A DNA stretch of 64,000 nucleotides, from the NCBI GenBank assembly GCA_037379345.1, contig CM074520.1:35622664-35686663 (forward strand), in the 5' to 3' direction. Shown piece by piece: positions 13,801 through 23,900 of the stretch (positions are counted from its first letter, which is position 1; each line of letters starts with the position of its first letter). The DNA is from Perna viridis (Eukaryota). The position numbers are program-made.

Positions 13801-16800
13801 CTAAATTGGTACTCCATGAACAAAAGTGCTTTCACAGTACCATACATATATATGGTCAAAATAAAAACAAAGTGATCAAACAAGAAGTTGACTGTTGCTT
13901 CAGTCTAAAATCAATTCCCATGATACATATACAAAAGCTTCTGTCAAAATATCAAGTGGCTATTTTAACAAAAAAGATGTGGAAGGCCAAACTGTAGGAC
14001 GAACAGACACCATGATTACTATATATTCCCTGCTTAAGAAGCCTTTTTTTCTTAAATAAAGCTCATTACCTGGGTAATAAAAGCCATCTTTATCATTCCT
14101 GGCAATAACACTCTGACCCTTCAATGTATCAAGGACTCTTCGAATAATGGTCGGGTTGAACTGGATCCTGTCCATCTTACTGTCATACACTTTCTCTGAG
14201 TGAGACTTCATCACATGACTTAGACTCTAAAAATAACAAAATACTCATTAAAAACTTCTGTTGAAAGCTGCTTCATTATCATTAAGCTTTATGAAAATGT
14301 TCTATTAAAAACTTCTGTTGAAAGCTGCTTCATTATCATTAAGCTTTATGAAAATGTTCTACATTAAAGAAGGTTAAATCACCCTAACAGTCATTCAATT
14401 CATGTTTAAATTTTGCTGCAATTTCTAAGAATTTTACAAGGCTAGAAAGGCAGAGGACACTTACCCTACCGGTGCACCTGGTCCATGCTCCCAGTTTTTA
14501 GTGGAGTCCGAGTTGCTCTTTTGCTTTTGTTAATTTGTATGTATGATTTTAGTTACTTTATGTTCTTTGTTGTGTATGTCTGTTTTCCATGTCTGGTCTT
14601 TGTCCCTGGATTGCATTCTTTTGATTACTGCTATAACCTTGGTTCCCTTGATTACTCTCTCTATTACATATAGGTAAGATCATTGTTTCACTTTTATTTT
14701 TTTACCTTTGACAGTAAAATTAATTAGGACTACATAGCTACTCAAGCTTTCATCAGAACAACTTTCATCAAAATCAACCAAGGAATATTTGAACCTGCTA
14801 AGAAGCCAATTTGAAAGCTAGAATAAAAATTGAAAGGATATTGAATTCTATAATCCTCAATCCCTTCATTGCTTTCCTGAAAGGAGGGGTAAGATAATAT
14901 AGGGAACCCACACTTGACAGATTCAAGTCATCCAATTAGAATTATGGTGAGTATGTGAAACAAGACTGCCATGCAAGTGAATAACATGCCACTAACAAAA
15001 TCCTTAAATTGAAAGACAAAAATGTATCAATGATGATAACTGTTATTCTGTATTCCTTATTACTTGTTTCTTGGCATTTGGTGGATGACTATCTCATTCG
15101 CAATCATACCACATCTCCTATTTTATATTGTAAAATGTAGGCTATGTACTAATTTCTACTATTCTAAGTTTGATGGGTTTTCACACAAAATGAAAAGTAG
15201 GAAATCTTTAACCATTTTTCTCAAATCTACATCTGAATGGCACCTTGTTGAAGTGTGCCAAACACTTCATTTTAAAAGCAAATTTAAGTAATGAAAATTT
15301 TCAGCTCTACAATTTCAAATGTGTGGCAGTTATAATTTTGTTAGTAAGAACACAGATTAGCAGTCTCACATATATCTATGTATTATCATTATGAACTATC
15401 ATATTGGAAAAGTAGTTACCTAATAATTAATTGGTCAAGAGTCACAATATACATGAAAGAAGAAAGTTGAATGAACACTGTCAGATCCAGGGGATTTCTG
15501 GGTTGGATCTTCCTTTTTGTTGTAACATTTGTAGATTTTGTGCAAAATCTGGGCAGAAATGAGCAAATGACAGCCTGAAACCCCTCCATTCTTTAACATT
15601 GATTTCATGACACACCCCTGCATAGTATGAACTTGTAGTTTCTCTAAAATGTCTGAATTTGGAAAAAAAAAACATTTAAGGGTGAAGAAAAACAGTCAAA
15701 CAGTATACAGAAAAACTTACCCCATTTGATTCTGTTCTGTTTTTCAGAATCTTTTTACATGCATTCCCATTTCTGTTAACTTCATCATAATATTTCAGTA
15801 TGAAATCTTTATAATGATTTTTTAAATGTAATCCCTCTAATTTCTCCTCCATTTCCATTTTCTTCAGAATTTTATATCTATAATAATTGTTGCTGACTTT
15901 GTGTAGAAGTGATTGGTAGTGCTAAAAAGGTGATAACAACGTCAATATTGGATTTACCATGCATTGATTACACATGTAATATTTCTATTGTGGAATGTCT
16001 GTAGATTCTATTGCCCAAAATAAATAAAAACGAAACAAAAAAAAAATGAAACTTTTTTTATGTGTTTGTTTAATTTGTTGTGGATTTTCCTGACTTGGAA
16101 TTTACCTGTGTGTATAGTAAAAATTGAAAGTCAAAGTAAAAAATTATTTACTTGTTCAAAATAATGTTGGATACAAAAAAAATTGAAACCTCATATCTCT
16201 GTGTGCCAATTTATTTGGTTTGAGAGAGTAAAGAATTGACTATCCATAAGAAAACAGCAGAAAACAAATGTACTTGTAAACATAAAAAAAACAAATCTGG
16301 TAAAAAGGAACACTGTATTTCAAAGTTAATGTTATTCTATCTAGACAAATCTGTGATGACTATGTTCACTTCTCAGAGTACATCATCACCCAGCAGAAAA
16401 CAAATTATGTGGTATACCTCAATATATGCTCATTGAAAAAAAGATAAAATTAAAAAAAATATATACCCTAAAAAAGTATTTCTTATAGTATTTAATAGAA
16501 AAAGGGTGTAACAAATATATTGGTCTTAACAGTTAAGATTTGCTAATATTGATTATTAGCTGTGAATTAACTAGATGTGTCCTTCTGATGTAGTGAACAT
16601 TAAATTAATTCCAGAGGTGTTAATTACATTAAGGTAAAGATACCTCATAGTGTGAAATTACATTTAGGTGTGAAAAAAAAACGAATCAATCAATAAATCA
16701 TGCAGGAATATTATGTACTCGGTATCTTTTATAATATACAAATGTAGGAAAAACAATATAGATGGTAAATCAAGGATTTTGTAATTAATTAGAGCATTTT

Positions 16801-20900: not shown

Positions 20901-23900
20901 TTATAATGCAGTGACAACAAGGTAAAACTTCACTATAAATACATGTATAGAAAAAATCCTGTATGTATAATTCCTATATCCATAAAAAAGATTGAAAATG
21001 ATTTAAGTTAAAAATGAATAGCAAAATTATCTAAGAAAACATCTGATGCATGACAACCTCCACCAAATGAAACTGTTAATTAAAAAGCAAACAACCTTCA
21101 TTTAAAGATCATCCAATATGTTGCCTTACTAGTTTTCTTAAATCATGGGATTATCAAGAGCTATTAGTTACATTTAAATTTATTAATAACATTAACATAG
21201 GAATAAGTCACTTTGTATCCCCACCCATTTGACTTGATATTTCATATGTAAATACATAAAAAAGAAGTGGACAAGAAATAATTACACTCCATGTACATAA
21301 ATTTGACAGTTTCACTAAAGGAAAATCAGAATACAACTTCAGCATATAAAATATGCCAAGCAGACATCTAATTTAAAAAAAAACAAACAACATAAATACC
21401 AGGTACATACAAATCTGATTTCTATTGGAAAAAAGTTACTAAAATTTTTTTTTAAGTCTAGATAAAAATAATAAAAAAAAAAACATGAGTATAAAGGCTA
21501 AAAAAAGCACTATGAATTTAACCTATTACATGTATTATGCTGAAAAGGAAATACTACAAAATGTAAAAAATATTGGAAACCTCCTTAAATGTCCATAAAC
21601 TATTTAAAATCTACTTAGTGGTGGTAAAAGTTTTACTGGGGAGTCTTACTGTAAATTTTTATAAAACCTCTTTTACGACTATATAGTAACATGAATAACA
21701 TTTTTTAAGTTATAATGCACTGAGAGAGGACACCTCAAACAGGATGGCACAGCCTACCAACGCCTCGACCAAAGGAACCCCAGACAGACTGTAATGATAC
21801 ATCTCTTGAGGCTTCAAAATTTAGCAAATTTTTATCTTAAAAATAAATGATAAAAATGAACAAACAAAGTGTGCCCGCTCTAAATCAGCCATATAAATTT
21901 CTTGAAGAGCAAACTACAAAATATCATATCAGACAAGCATTTTAATACATGGCTGTATTAAGGGAAAATGCAATATCAAGAAGAACATAATTGACATGCA
22001 TAATACTGATACAAGAACAAACTGACTAGCTTCTACTGTATCTAACACTAACAATATAGTCTTTGACACAATACAAGTGTGTACAATACATATAAAATGT
22101 GTAAATAAAGATAAAAATATATAAAATTGCAAATAAAAATGATTCAAATGTGTCACATACACTGTTAATGGACAAACTTGAATAACATATTCTCCACACA
22201 GTTTCCCAAAACATATAATTGAGAAATAACAAGGAAATATCCATCCTGCACACTGGCAGGTTATAAATGCATTACACAGAACATTTACAACAATCTTTTT
22301 AAGTTCAAATATCCAAACAATAAACAATAAAAAAAACCACATAAACATTACTTACACATGTATTCTGTAAGGTCTCATTATAGCATCTAAAAGCACCTAT
22401 AAATATCAAAAAAACATGCACAAGAAGAAGCTAGACTTCACAGTACATTTACCTGATTCAAACTCTTACTCTTAGACCCAATCTTTATCTTACATTGAAT
22501 TTGTGTCTACCTCAGGTCATCTTTTTGTTTTGATTTATATTTATAACCACTGTAACCTACACCTACAGAATGTACATATATAATTTTCTAACACTACCAT
22601 GCAATATTATTAATCATAAGACCAAATATACAATATACATTTACATGTTGTGGGATTGTTTATCAACATGCATTGTTCTAAATTGTTAAACTAACATGAC
22701 ATCTGGCAGTCATAACAATACATTTAGCATTTTACATATAGTATTCTTTTTCTCCAACTATATAACAAAGCCAGTTTTTACAGCATGCCAAGCTCCTTCT
22801 GCTCCATTCATGTGTGACTAACCTCAAAGAAATCATGTGTACTTCTGTCTGTTAGGCTTGAGGCTATGCTTGCTTTATCATCATAGACATTCAGTTCTTC
22901 TTCATCTTTCTTATCCCTGCTTCTGTCACTTCTCACACTGCGGTCACCTTTGTCACTCCTCACACTCCGGTCAGCCTTGTCACTTTTGTCACTCCTCACA
23001 CTTCTATCACCTTTGTCACTGTGAGAACTTTTAGAACCCTTTTTACTATGGTCGCTATCACTGTCACTGTCGCTAGAACTTGGTGAGTATGATCCTGACT
23101 TTTCTCGCTCATCCATGTCCATTACCCTCTCCAATAAATTGTCATAGCTGTCTTTTCGACGAGGATCAGCAGCTCTACGGAGATCTTTTGATTGCTGTAG
23201 GAAGTTGTTTGCTCTATTTATTTCCTCTTCTAGTAGAAGAATATCATTTTCTTTGATAGGCCATCCAGCATGGTCCAGTGCATCAAGAAGTTCATTGCGA
23301 TGTTCAACAAAAGGTATTGGCTTATCTGAATCAAATCTGTCAAAAATAATCCCTTATTATTAAAAGAACAATCTCAAATATATGGACTGGTTACCCAAAC
23401 AGTATATTGTATAATTTAGAAGGGACTAAATGAACTCATTCCTTATAAAATACACTTTTTTACATTTTTGGGAATGACAATGCATAAAGATATGTATTCA
23501 TATTTTCCTGAAATTGCATCTTCTCAAGCAGAAAGTGTCATGCAAACAGAAAAGCAAAATAAAATAAAAATTAATCAATACCTAACATCTTACTGAATAT
23601 TTGTATAATAAAATTGATTGTCAAAATATTTTTTGTCTGAAGGAAAAAAAGAAACCAATGAAAGTTATTTCCCCTTTTTATGTTGCTTTCTTCCAGGAAA
23701 AAATCAGCAAATAGGATGGTTTTTAAAATTCAATATAAAAAATTACATGCATGTCAATCTACAACTAACAAGCCAAGTACCTATAATAAACATCTTGTAT
23801 CTTTAAAAGTGATAAACTTACTTCTTGCGAGATTCTTCTGGTAAAGATTCCCAAACAATTTTGTTCAGTCGTCTGAAAAATAAATAAATACATAAATTTT

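What the first reader, a model, noticed from the sequence alone, without database searches (positions are those of the whole stretch)
14070..23336. VWA3B locus looks 'splittable': full-length, VWA-only and DUF4537-only products from one gene
Seen: exon 23336-22823 has a good phase-0 donor (GAG|GTTAGT) 12 nt before an in-frame TGA. About 4 kb of U-rich, largely TE-free, 3'UTR-like sequence follows, with several minus-strand AATAAA (plus-strand tttatt at 21179, 20663, 20582, 19973, 18636). Next come a CpG/TGACGT cluster (17700-18010), a donor at 17648, an exon 17577-17316 carrying its own ATG, and a 201-nt exon. These join in phase 0 to exon 14226. Known (recalled): vertebrate VWA3B carries the VWA part and DUF4537 in one polypeptide, with the junction at this point. 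Inference: the 8.6-kb 'intron' holds both a terminator and a promoter. That would give ~1200-aa VWA-only, ~800-aa DUF4537/RS-only and ~1900-aa fused products, i.e. a conditional or ongoing gene fission.
Basis: partly seen in the sequence, partly recalled or inferred. Interest (0 to 1): 0.75.

Follow-up and report, generated by a model that had tools for sequence, protein, structure and literature searches.

The report
Mussel VWA3B gene split in two
In this mussel-like genome the cilia-associated gene VWA3B, a single gene in most animals, most likely runs as two neighbouring genes, which is an ordinary case of evolutionary gene splitting and not a new mechanism.

Summary
Exon 23336-22823 ends in GAG|GTTAGT, and reading through gives VSHT then TGA (22810-22808). 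A 201-nt exon (15921-15721) and exon 14226-14070 join in phase 0.

Related mussels back the two half products. Three database proteins end in the same ...FFEVSHT tail, one of them on a 4,035-nt intron-less contig. A 755-aa DUF4537-only protein on a 3,062-nt contig starts at the Met that the window encodes at 15858. Oyster, scallop and pearl-oyster records are also DUF4537-only. Fused VWA+DUF4537 proteins are the rule in more distant animals.

A CpG-rich patch (17600-18200, o/e up to 1.6 against 0.25 for the window) sits between the halves. It resembles the gene's 5' promoter patch.

Three claims fail. The AATAAA count is at chance level. Exon 17577-17316 has no coding support. The fused ~1900-aa product rests only on two truncated Mytilus coruscus gene models plus frame compatibility.

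Best reading: an in-situ gene fission, probably old in pteriomorph bivalves. The fused read-through isoform is possible but unproven. This is a new case of a known kind, of moderate interest.

The parts
22808..49997 (-). Upstream unit: the VWA half of the VWA3B orthologue. It runs from the ATG at 49997-49995 to the TGA at 22810-22808.
   Evidence: tblastn of P0004 (1194 aa) covers residues 1-1194 in collinear exons at 62-94% identity. VWA_3 Pfam hit in exon ORF 34762-35043, E 7.4e-7. Splice junctions by phase and residue count.
22823..23336 (-). Last coding exon of the VWA half, 514 nt. It contains a Ser/Asp-rich repeat and a conserved C-terminal ...STHDFFE.
   Evidence: 70-74% identity to P0001/P0003/P0004. 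Internal 18-36-nt tandem repeats at 22924-23020.
22808..22822 (-). Retained donor GTTAGT read as codons: VSHT plus TGA. This is the stop of the VWA-only product.
   Evidence: The identical tail ends P0001, P0004 and P0070. The same hexamer GTTAGT serves as a spliced donor at 25497 and 34813 in this gene.
20500..22807 (-). T-rich, CpG-free stretch, the candidate 3'UTR of the VWA-only mRNA. Its extent is inferred.
   Evidence: 42-43% T, 98th percentile. The sequence below the final stop (1-1336) has 41.7% T. 0-4 CpG per 400 nt. ATTAAA at 21946; AATAAA at 21184, 20668, 20587, 20512. No Pfam domain in its ORFs.
17600..18200 (.). CpG-rich patch with 9-13 CpG per 400 nt and o/e 1.2-1.6. It is the candidate internal promoter and includes an A34/T34 run at 17962-17995.
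   Evidence: It is not repeated elsewhere in the window. No Rfam or tRNA match. No target-site duplication found.
16700..17200 (.). Second, smaller CpG patch (8 CpG per 400 nt, o/e about 1) containing TGACGT at 17068.
17316..17577 (-). At best it is a non-coding 5' exon, and it may be no exon at all.
   Evidence: All three frames contain stops. The only stretch open to the donor is 18 codons (17369-17316), preceded by three other ATGs. No tblastn hit from any of the 7 relatives used as tblastn queries.
15721..15921 (-). 201-nt exon. It carries the likely start codon of the DUF4537 unit at 15858-15856, with A at -3 and G at +4. The 63 nt upstream are open in frame.
   Evidence: P0007 residues 1-46 map to 15858-15721. 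Identity to Mytilus models is 7-10 of 21 upstream of the Met and 31-35 of 46 downstream.
14070..14226 (-). First widely conserved exon of the DUF4537 half, holding the start of the first DUF4537 domain.
   Evidence: DUF4537 Pfam hit. 83% identity to P0003, and matches to oyster and Saccoglossus proteins. Junctions.
1334..15858 (-). Downstream unit: the DUF4537 (Tudor-like) and Arg/Ser-rich half, from ATG 15858 to the stop at 1336-1334. The RS-rich exon lies within 8403-9032.
   Evidence: DUF4537 hits in 8 exon ORFs. tblastn of P0007 (755 aa) and P0003. P0007 has three DUF4537 stretches, E 2.2e-83.

Best explanation
The window holds the mussel orthologue of VWA3B as two tandem, collinear transcription units on the minus strand. 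This is an in-situ gene fission.

Unit 1 runs from ATG 49997. Its last exon, 23336-22823, is not spliced onward. The old donor GTTAGT is read as codons, giving VSHT and then TGA, and the mRNA ends somewhere in the T-rich sequence below. The product is a VWA-only protein of about 1190 aa.

Unit 2 starts downstream of that point, probably from the CpG-rich patch at 16700-18200. It uses the acceptor at 15921 and begins translation at ATG 15858. It encodes a protein of about 750 aa with three DUF4537 (Tudor-like) domains and an RS-rich linker.

The fused polypeptide is the ancestral state. The split is shared with other pteriomorph bivalves.

Shown: the coding layout, the stop, the start, the phases, the CpG patch and the proteins of relatives. 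Inferred: the poly(A) site, the transcription start, and the claim that the two mRNAs are the main products in this species.
For: 1. The tail ...FFEVSHT ends three database proteins from Mytilus-like sources. These are P0001 (a gene model), P0004 (1194 aa on a 4,035-nt contig) and the fragment P0070. The same coding exons span 27 kb in the window, so the 4,035-nt contig must be spliced mRNA that nevertheless keeps the first bases of this 'intron'.

2. A more distant VWA-only relative, P0005 (1176 aa on a 6,223-nt contig, 56-58% identical), also ends a few codons after ...E with a Val-initial tail.

3. P0007 (755 aa on a 3,062-nt contig) begins at the Met that maps to 15858. DUF4537-only proteins are also recorded for Crassostrea gigas (751 aa), Mizuhopecten yessoensis (726 aa) and Pinctada imbricata (807 aa), and on a further 2,868-nt contig.

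4. These DUF-only proteins are 66-79% identical to one another. They are only 39-50% identical to the DUF part of the fused proteins compared (P0021 and Owenia P0019).

5. Conservation drops just upstream of the Met, to 7-10 of 21 against 31-35 of 46 downstream.

6. The interval 22823 to 15921 (6.9 kb) is the largest gap between coding exons in the locus.

7. The CpG patch at 17601-18200 matches the 5' patch at 50001-50700 in o/e. In Mytilus californianus, CpG o/e falls as methylation rises, and methylation dips just upstream of transcription starts (10.1101/2025.08.27.672726, passages).

8. The T-richness below the TGA equals that below the final stop.
Against: - There are no RNA data for this species. 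All transcript evidence comes from relatives and from contig lengths, not from seen nucleotide sequences.
- Donor 22823 is identical to two spliced donors of the same gene. Donor and acceptor are both phase 0, and the 21 codons before the Met are open here and in two Mytilus species. A fused mRNA is therefore structurally possible.
- Two M. coruscus models make exactly that join.
- There is no AATAAA within 1.6 kb of the stop, and the hexamer count is at chance.
- The CpG patch lies 1.7-2.3 kb from the ATG exon. The candidate leader contains many upstream ATGs. The adjacent A34 run could mark an old retroposed insert.
- The protein searches are word-based and incomplete. A missing fused mussel transcript is weak evidence.
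Confidence: 0.6

Rival explanations
1. Conditional fission. One locus makes three products. Splicing at 22823 competes with intronic polyadenylation, giving fused or VWA-only mRNA. An internal promoter adds the DUF4537-only mRNA.
For: - Everything that supports the two half products also fits this model.
- The donor GAG|GTTAGT is intact and identical to the spliced donor at 25497.
- The phases are 0/0, and the reading frame is open for 21 codons upstream of the Met in the window, M. coruscus and M. galloprovincialis.
- The M. coruscus models P0002/P0003 join the two exons.
Against: - The M. coruscus models lack about the first 400 aa of the VWA part, so they are imperfect predictions.
- No contig of transcript size encodes a fused mussel protein in the three searches made.
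- The Val and Ser codons of a conserved protein tail would by themselves preserve a GT and an AGT. An intact-looking donor is therefore not proof of use.
- Chance alone gives about a 0.18 probability of 21 open codons at this base composition (my arithmetic from the base counts).
Confidence: 0.27
2. A single ordinary fused gene. The half proteins in databases are artefacts: intron-retaining or broken transcript assemblies and split gene models.
For: - The fused architecture is the rule elsewhere. Of 26 long representatives scanned, 18 have VWA_3 plus DUF4537 and 3 more span the junction.
- The fused form is recorded in Saccoglossus, Owenia and Lissotriton.
- Chordate VWA3B clusters carry both domains in 97-100% of members.
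Against: - The same four-codon tail recurs in independent records, in clusters of 12 and 10 member sequences.
- Five separate bivalve records are DUF4537-only. They have their own Met-initial, mutually different N-termini.
- A fused transcript truncated at its 5' end would give an ORF open to the contig edge, not one starting at the Met.
- The C-terminal ~30 residues before the tail are the best conserved part of the last VWA exon.
Confidence: 0.08
3. On the promoter only: the CpG patch at 17600-18200 is not the promoter of unit 2. It is a relic of a retroposed insert, or an antisense or enhancer element, and unit 2 starts elsewhere, for example close to 15921.
For: - An A34 run on the plus strand ends the patch.
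- The other non-promoter CpG peaks in the window are repeats: 7556-8029 and 11781-12312.
- TGACGT sits 18 nt upstream of acceptor 15921.
- A leader from the patch would carry many upstream ATGs.
Against: - The patch has no second copy in the window.
- It has no flanking direct repeat, no Pfam ORF and no Rfam or tRNA match.
- The 201-nt exon has a good acceptor with a pyrimidine tract, which implies an upstream exon.
Confidence: 0.3

Closest known systems
VWA3B of deuterostomes and annelids: Saccoglossus kowalevskii VWA3B-like (1800 aa), Lissotriton helveticus VWA3B (1689 aa), and an unnamed Owenia fusiformis protein (1775 aa)
   Same: Same domains in the same order: VWA_3, then the conserved C-terminal module of the VWA part, then DUF4537 repeats with an RS or charged linker. 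The window's exons are collinear with them.
   Different: There the two parts form one polypeptide. Here, and in the bivalve relatives found, the proteins recorded from transcript-size contigs or RefSeq-style records are the two halves.
Chordate VWA3A (VWA-only, about 1020-1100 aa) and C11orf16 homologue (DUF4537-only, about 590 aa). The names come from the Atlas clusters.
   Same: These are the same two architectures as the mussel halves. The VWA-only relative P0005 scores 0.95 to VWA3A clusters.
   Different: These are paralogues. From recall, they sit at other loci; no call checked this. The mussel halves are adjacent and collinear with the fused orthologue, so they are the split orthologue itself.
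In-situ gene fission and the mirror case of read-through fusion of neighbouring genes (general class; Drosophila monkey-king is recalled as a fission example)
   Same: An ancestral single ORF becomes two units, with a new stop for the first and a new start for the second.
   Different: Monkey-king arose by duplication and complementary loss (recalled). Here there is no duplication, the halves stay in place, and the old splice phases are still compatible.
Composite terminal exon with intronic polyadenylation (recalled example: the secreted versus membrane switch of immunoglobulin mu)
   Same: A donor is either spliced or read through into a short tail with a stop and a downstream 3' end.
   Different: The competition is not shown here. 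No poly(A) site has been mapped, and the hexamer count is at chance.

Membership tests
VWA3B orthologue | VWA_3 domain and the conserved C-terminal module of the VWA part | tested here: met
   VWA_3 in exon ORF 34762-35043 (E 7.4e-7). Collinear tblastn to P0004, P0003 and Saccoglossus P0006.
VWA3B orthologue | DUF4537 repeats downstream on the same strand, collinear with fused relatives | tested here: met
   DUF4537 hits in 8 minus-strand exon ORFs between 14226 and 1774. tblastn of P0003, P0006 and P0007.
VWA3B orthologue | Both parts in one polypeptide | tested here: inconclusive
   The frame allows it. In mussels only two truncated M. coruscus models show it. The transcript-size contigs of relatives encode the halves.
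In-situ gene fission | Fused state in outgroups | tested here: met
   Saccoglossus, Owenia and Lissotriton. Of 26 representatives scanned, picked by hand from the 150 listed, 18 have both domains.
In-situ gene fission | Own stop for the upstream half and own start for the downstream half, both conserved in relatives | tested here: met
   VSHT plus stop in the window and in P0001, P0004 and P0070. The Met at 15858 is the first residue of P0007.
In-situ gene fission | Separate mRNAs in this organism and no fused mRNA | not testable with these tools
   No RNA data or eukaryotic transcript collection was available. The only evidence is the contig lengths of relatives.
In-situ gene fission | The halves are adjacent in the other split species | not testable with these tools
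   The protein searches give no genomic context. The one genome collection on offer holds bacteria and archaea only.
Intronic polyadenylation / composite terminal exon | Donor read-through with a nearby in-frame stop | tested here: met
Intronic polyadenylation / composite terminal exon | Poly(A) signal and mapped 3' ends in the intron | tested here: inconclusive
   Signals exist but are no more frequent than chance, and the nearest AATAAA is 1.6 kb away. 3' ends are not testable.
Internal (alternative) promoter | Unmethylated-type CpG patch between the units | tested here: met
   o/e 1.2-1.6 at 17601-18200, against 0.25 for the window and 1.2 at the 5' promoter patch.
Internal (alternative) promoter | Mapped transcription start | not testable with these tools
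   No CAGE, cap or expression data.

The most novel reading that the evidence does not exclude
The locus is held in a half-split state. The donor at 22823 and the acceptor at 15921 have stayed frame-compatible since the fission. The cell can therefore still make the ancestral fused VWA-Tudor protein by splicing, or the two halves by intronic termination plus an internal promoter. The choice would be regulated by tissue, for example sperm flagellum against gill cilia.
Probability: 0.25. Interest if true: 0.6.

Novelty: new member of a known kind. Interest (0 to 1): 0.35.

Why it matters
VWA3B is a poorly understood protein. It was detected in human respiratory cilia by proteomics (PMC12310455, passages), and no solved structure of it was found.

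A lineage that expresses the VWA module and the Tudor-like DUF4537 module separately shows that the two modules can exist apart. It offers a natural setting to ask by localisation and expression where each half goes.

For genome annotation, the case warns that homology-guided predictors will fuse the two units, as the M. coruscus models seem to do. For gene-structure evolution, it is a clean in-situ fission in which the old splice signals can still be read.

No paper in the searched library mentions VWA3B together with Mytilus or oyster. DUF4537 appears in only 3 papers, none on this topic by title.

Tried and rejected
- AATAAA enrichment as evidence for a terminator: rejected. There are 7 in 4.8 kb against about 7-8 expected.
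- Exon 17577-17316 as a coding first exon: rejected. Included after 22823, it would close the frame.
- Another gene or a transposon ORF inside 14227-22808: no Pfam domain in any stop-to-stop ORF of at least 40 codons, on either strand, apart from weak sub-threshold hits.
- Structured RNA or tRNA-derived SINE in the interval: 0 Rfam matches at E<=1 and 0 tRNAs.
- Retroposon reading of the CpG patch: no target-site duplication and no second copy in the window. This is not excluded.
- The upstream exons of the M. galloprovincialis partial model P0012 are absent from the window. Only its 201-nt-exon part matches.
- Solved structures: none for the VWA part. For the DUF part there is only a weak likeness to the PHF1 Tudor domain, E 0.003.
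The member names, accessions and contig counts of P0001-P0005 therefore stayed unseen.
- Taxonomic naming of the unnamed representatives (P0021, P0024 and others) was not possible. The Atlas gave only 'Chordata' for neighbouring clusters.
- A literature search combining VWA3B with broad bivalve terms was swamped by unrelated bivalve papers.
- Not used: genome contigs (bacteria and archaea only).

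
Full report
**What the window is**

The window has 31% G+C, no N, and a CpG o/e of 0.25. Its minus strand carries a complete VWA3B-like locus.

tblastn of a 1194-aa mussel VWA protein (P0004), a Mytilus coruscus model (P0003) and Saccoglossus VWA3B-like (P0006) gives collinear exons. 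They run from an ATG at 49997 to a stop at 1336-1334.

Per-exon identity to the Mytilus-like proteins is about 62-98%. The source is therefore a mytilid-like bivalve, but not one of the species in the database hits.

Exon by exon, Pfam finds VWA_3 in the ORF 34762-35043. It finds DUF4537 in eight exon ORFs between 14226 and 1774.

Searches were made exon by exon or with proteins from the databases.

**The observation**

The acceptor before 23336, the exon end GAG|GTTAGT at 22823 and the four read-through codons VSHT are as described. So is the TGA at 22810-22808.

The 201-nt exon 15921-15721 is open in phase 0. It joins exon 14226-14070 in phase 0. Splicing 22823 to 15921, or 22823 to 14226, would therefore keep the frame.

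The hexamer GTTAGT is also the spliced donor at 25497 and 34813 in this gene. The donor at 22823 is thus not obviously weak.

The five quoted AATAAA sites exist, with two more. Seven in 4.8 kb is what the window-wide density predicts, and none lies within 1.6 kb of the stop.

The stretch 20.5-22.5 kb is 42-43% T on the sense strand. That is the 98th percentile of 1-kb windows, and it equals the sequence below the final stop of the locus.

The CpG cluster is real. Window 17701-18100 has 13 CpG and o/e 1.6. Only three other places in the 64 kb reach 11 or more CpG per 400 nt. One is the 5' end of the gene (50001-50700). The other two coincide with repeats that have further copies in the window.

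Exact TGACGT occurs once in the patch. The window total of 11 against 6.75 expected is unremarkable. Three TGACG half-sites lie in 17803-17937, and three more lie in the 5' patch.

The segment 17577-17316 has stops in all frames. Only an 18-codon stretch is open to its donor, and three earlier ATGs precede it. None of the relatives used as tblastn queries matches it.

**Relatives: the VWA half**

A search with the translation of exon 23336-22823 among longer proteins gave 6 hits.
- Two end in ...THDFFEVSHT, which is the window's read-through tail. These are the M. galloprovincialis model P0001 (1189 aa; cluster of 12 sequences) and P0004 (1194 aa; ENA; cluster of 10; longest contig 4,035 nt).
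- A 171-aa fragment, P0070, ends the same way.
- The window spreads these coding exons over 27 kb. A 4,035-nt contig that holds all 1194 codons must therefore be spliced mRNA, yet it runs on past this one donor.
- P0005 (1176 aa on a 6,223-nt contig) is the nearest non-Mytilus relative, at 56-58% identity. It is also VWA-only and ends a few codons after ...LE with a Val-initial tail. That is what a phase-0 GT read as a codon would give; this last point is inference.

**Relatives: the DUF4537 half**

A search with the junction and first-DUF region of P0003 among shorter proteins gave 12 hits.
- P0007 (755 aa on a 3,062-nt contig) has a first residue that maps to ATG 15858 in the 201-nt exon.
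- P0008 is 776 aa on a 2,868-nt contig.
- Named DUF4537-only records are from Crassostrea gigas (XP_011442307.1, 751 aa), Mizuhopecten yessoensis (726 aa) and Pinctada imbricata (807 aa).
- Their N-termini differ from one another. That is expected if first exons were recruited after a split.
- The remaining hits were short fragments, the partial M. galloprovincialis model P0012, and a distant Ambystoma protein.

**Relatives: fused forms**

The same query among proteins of similar length gave 4 hits. They are the two M. coruscus models, Owenia fusiformis (1775 aa) and Lissotriton helveticus VWA3B (1689 aa). Saccoglossus (1800 aa) came.

The M. coruscus models start about 400 residues into the VWA part. 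They are imperfect predictions.

A full scan of the 50%-identity representative library with P0004 gave 1720 hits at E<=0.001. I Pfam-scanned 26 of the 150 listed, picked by hand as the best-scoring long ones.
- 18 carry VWA_3 and DUF4537.
- 2 carry DUF4537 and also match the C-terminal part of P0004.
- 6 carry VWA only. Of these, P0026 runs into the first DUF4537 exon, P0022 and P0023 stop before the junction, and P0024, P0032 and P0035 end near it.

So 21 of 26 span the junction. The best-scoring fused representative, P0021, is only 39-43% identical to the bivalve DUF-only proteins. Those are 66-79% identical among themselves.

Atlas clusters named VWA3B carry both domains in 97-100% of members. 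Clusters named VWA3A are VWA-only, and a C11orf16-homologue cluster is mainly DUF4537-only.

Some of the unnamed representatives look vertebrate. I did not examine whether any is human. They served only for domain counts and identities.

**Reading**

The fused protein is ancestral. The bivalve relatives found here express the halves.

In the window, the first half has its own conserved stop. The second half has its own start in a good context, with A at -3 and G at +4.

Conservation against the Mytilus models falls from 31-35 of 46 residues after the Met to 7-10 of 21 before it. That fits a start codon at 15858 with a leader or relaxed linker upstream.

The gap 22823 to 15921 is the largest between coding exons in the locus. 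It holds no other recognisable gene, transposon ORF or RNA.

Its upstream part looks like 3'UTR by composition. Its downstream part holds a CpG patch like the one at the gene's own 5' end.

In a mussel methylome study, CpG o/e falls as methylation rises, and methylation dips just upstream of transcription starts (10.1101/2025.08.27.672726, passages seen). I therefore read the patch as a long-term unmethylated region and the likeliest promoter of the second unit.

If an exon ending at 17649 were spliced to 15921, an in-frame TAG five codons before the junction would close the frame. ATG 15858 would then be the first in-frame start (read directly).

**What remains open**

No RNA evidence exists for this species. 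The poly(A) site and the transcription start are inferred.

The fused mRNA is structurally possible. The donor is intact, the phases are 0/0, and 21 codons are open before the Met in three species.

Each of these could also persist without use. The Val and Ser codons of a conserved tail keep a GT and an AGT. Twenty-one open codons have a chance probability of about 0.18 at this composition (my arithmetic from the base counts).

The A34 run at 17962-17995 could mark an old retroposed insert. No flanking duplication was found.

The protein searches share-word first and are incomplete. The nature of the short contigs therefore rests on their lengths alone.

**Known context**

VWA3B was detected by proteomics in wild-type human respiratory cilia, and the authors discuss it as a predicted ciliary protein (PMC12310455, passages seen).

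No solved structure matches the VWA part. The DUF4537 part weakly resembles the Tudor domain of PHF1 (E 0.003).

No paper in the searched library holds VWA3B together with Mytilus or oyster. DUF4537 occurs in 3 papers, seen as listing only.

**Verdict**

The best explanation is an in-situ fission of VWA3B into a VWA-only gene and a DUF4537/RS gene (confidence about 0.6). A residual fused isoform is the main rival (about 0.27).

This is a new case of a known kind of event. The halves are already recorded separately in public annotation, though the split is not described in print as far as my searches reach.

Noticed in passing
window 50421-60564 (+), CpG patch 50001-50700: A zDHHC-type palmitoyltransferase gene lies head-to-head with the VWA unit. 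The DHHC Pfam hit is at 58007-58177 (E 4e-8), with a weaker one at 59211-59462. The shared 5' region is the strongest CpG patch of the window (19 CpG per 400 nt) and holds 3 of the window's 11 TGACGT sites.
   Followed up: partly
window 2465-2699, 7556-8029, 11005-11191, 14442-14666, 44483-44962: A dispersed repeat family of about 190-480 nt has 4-5 copies in the window. One copy lies in the intron just upstream of exon 14226. It has no Pfam domain.
   Followed up: partly
window 24085-24784 and 26426-27533: Two satellite-like arrays lie inside introns of the VWA unit, with up to 11 and 16 internal copies by self-BLAST.
   Followed up: no
window 14247-14361: A perfect two-copy tandem duplication of 57 nt (100% match) ends 20 nt upstream of the acceptor of exon 14226.
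   Followed up: no
window 17962-17995: An uninterrupted run of 34 A on the plus strand (T on the gene's strand) lies inside the internal CpG patch. No flanking direct repeat was found.
   Followed up: partly
window 21932-22351 (-): A 140-codon stop-free frame lies in the T-rich stretch below the VWA stop. It has no Pfam hit and is probably a by-product of T-rich composition.
   Followed up: partly
window 53099-53338 (-) and neighbouring ORFs 52778-53689: A weak reverse-transcriptase likeness (RVT_1, E 0.0019, below the family cut-off) lies in an intron of the zDHHC gene. It is probably a decayed retroelement fragment.
   Followed up: no
proteins P0149 and P0154 compared with window 22823-22850: Two unnamed, more distant relatives have no VWA or DUF4537 part visible by eye. 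Neither was Pfam-scanned. Each ends in an acidic ...SFF or ...SFFD motif like the mussel ...DFFE. This hints that proteins ending at this same junction may exist in other lineages.
   Followed up: no
protein P0012 (M. galloprovincialis partial model) compared with window 15706-15921: This model joins the same 201-nt exon, at the same acceptor, to unrelated membrane-protein-like upstream exons that are absent from the window. It also reads through the exon's donor. It is probably a chimeric prediction.
   Followed up: partly
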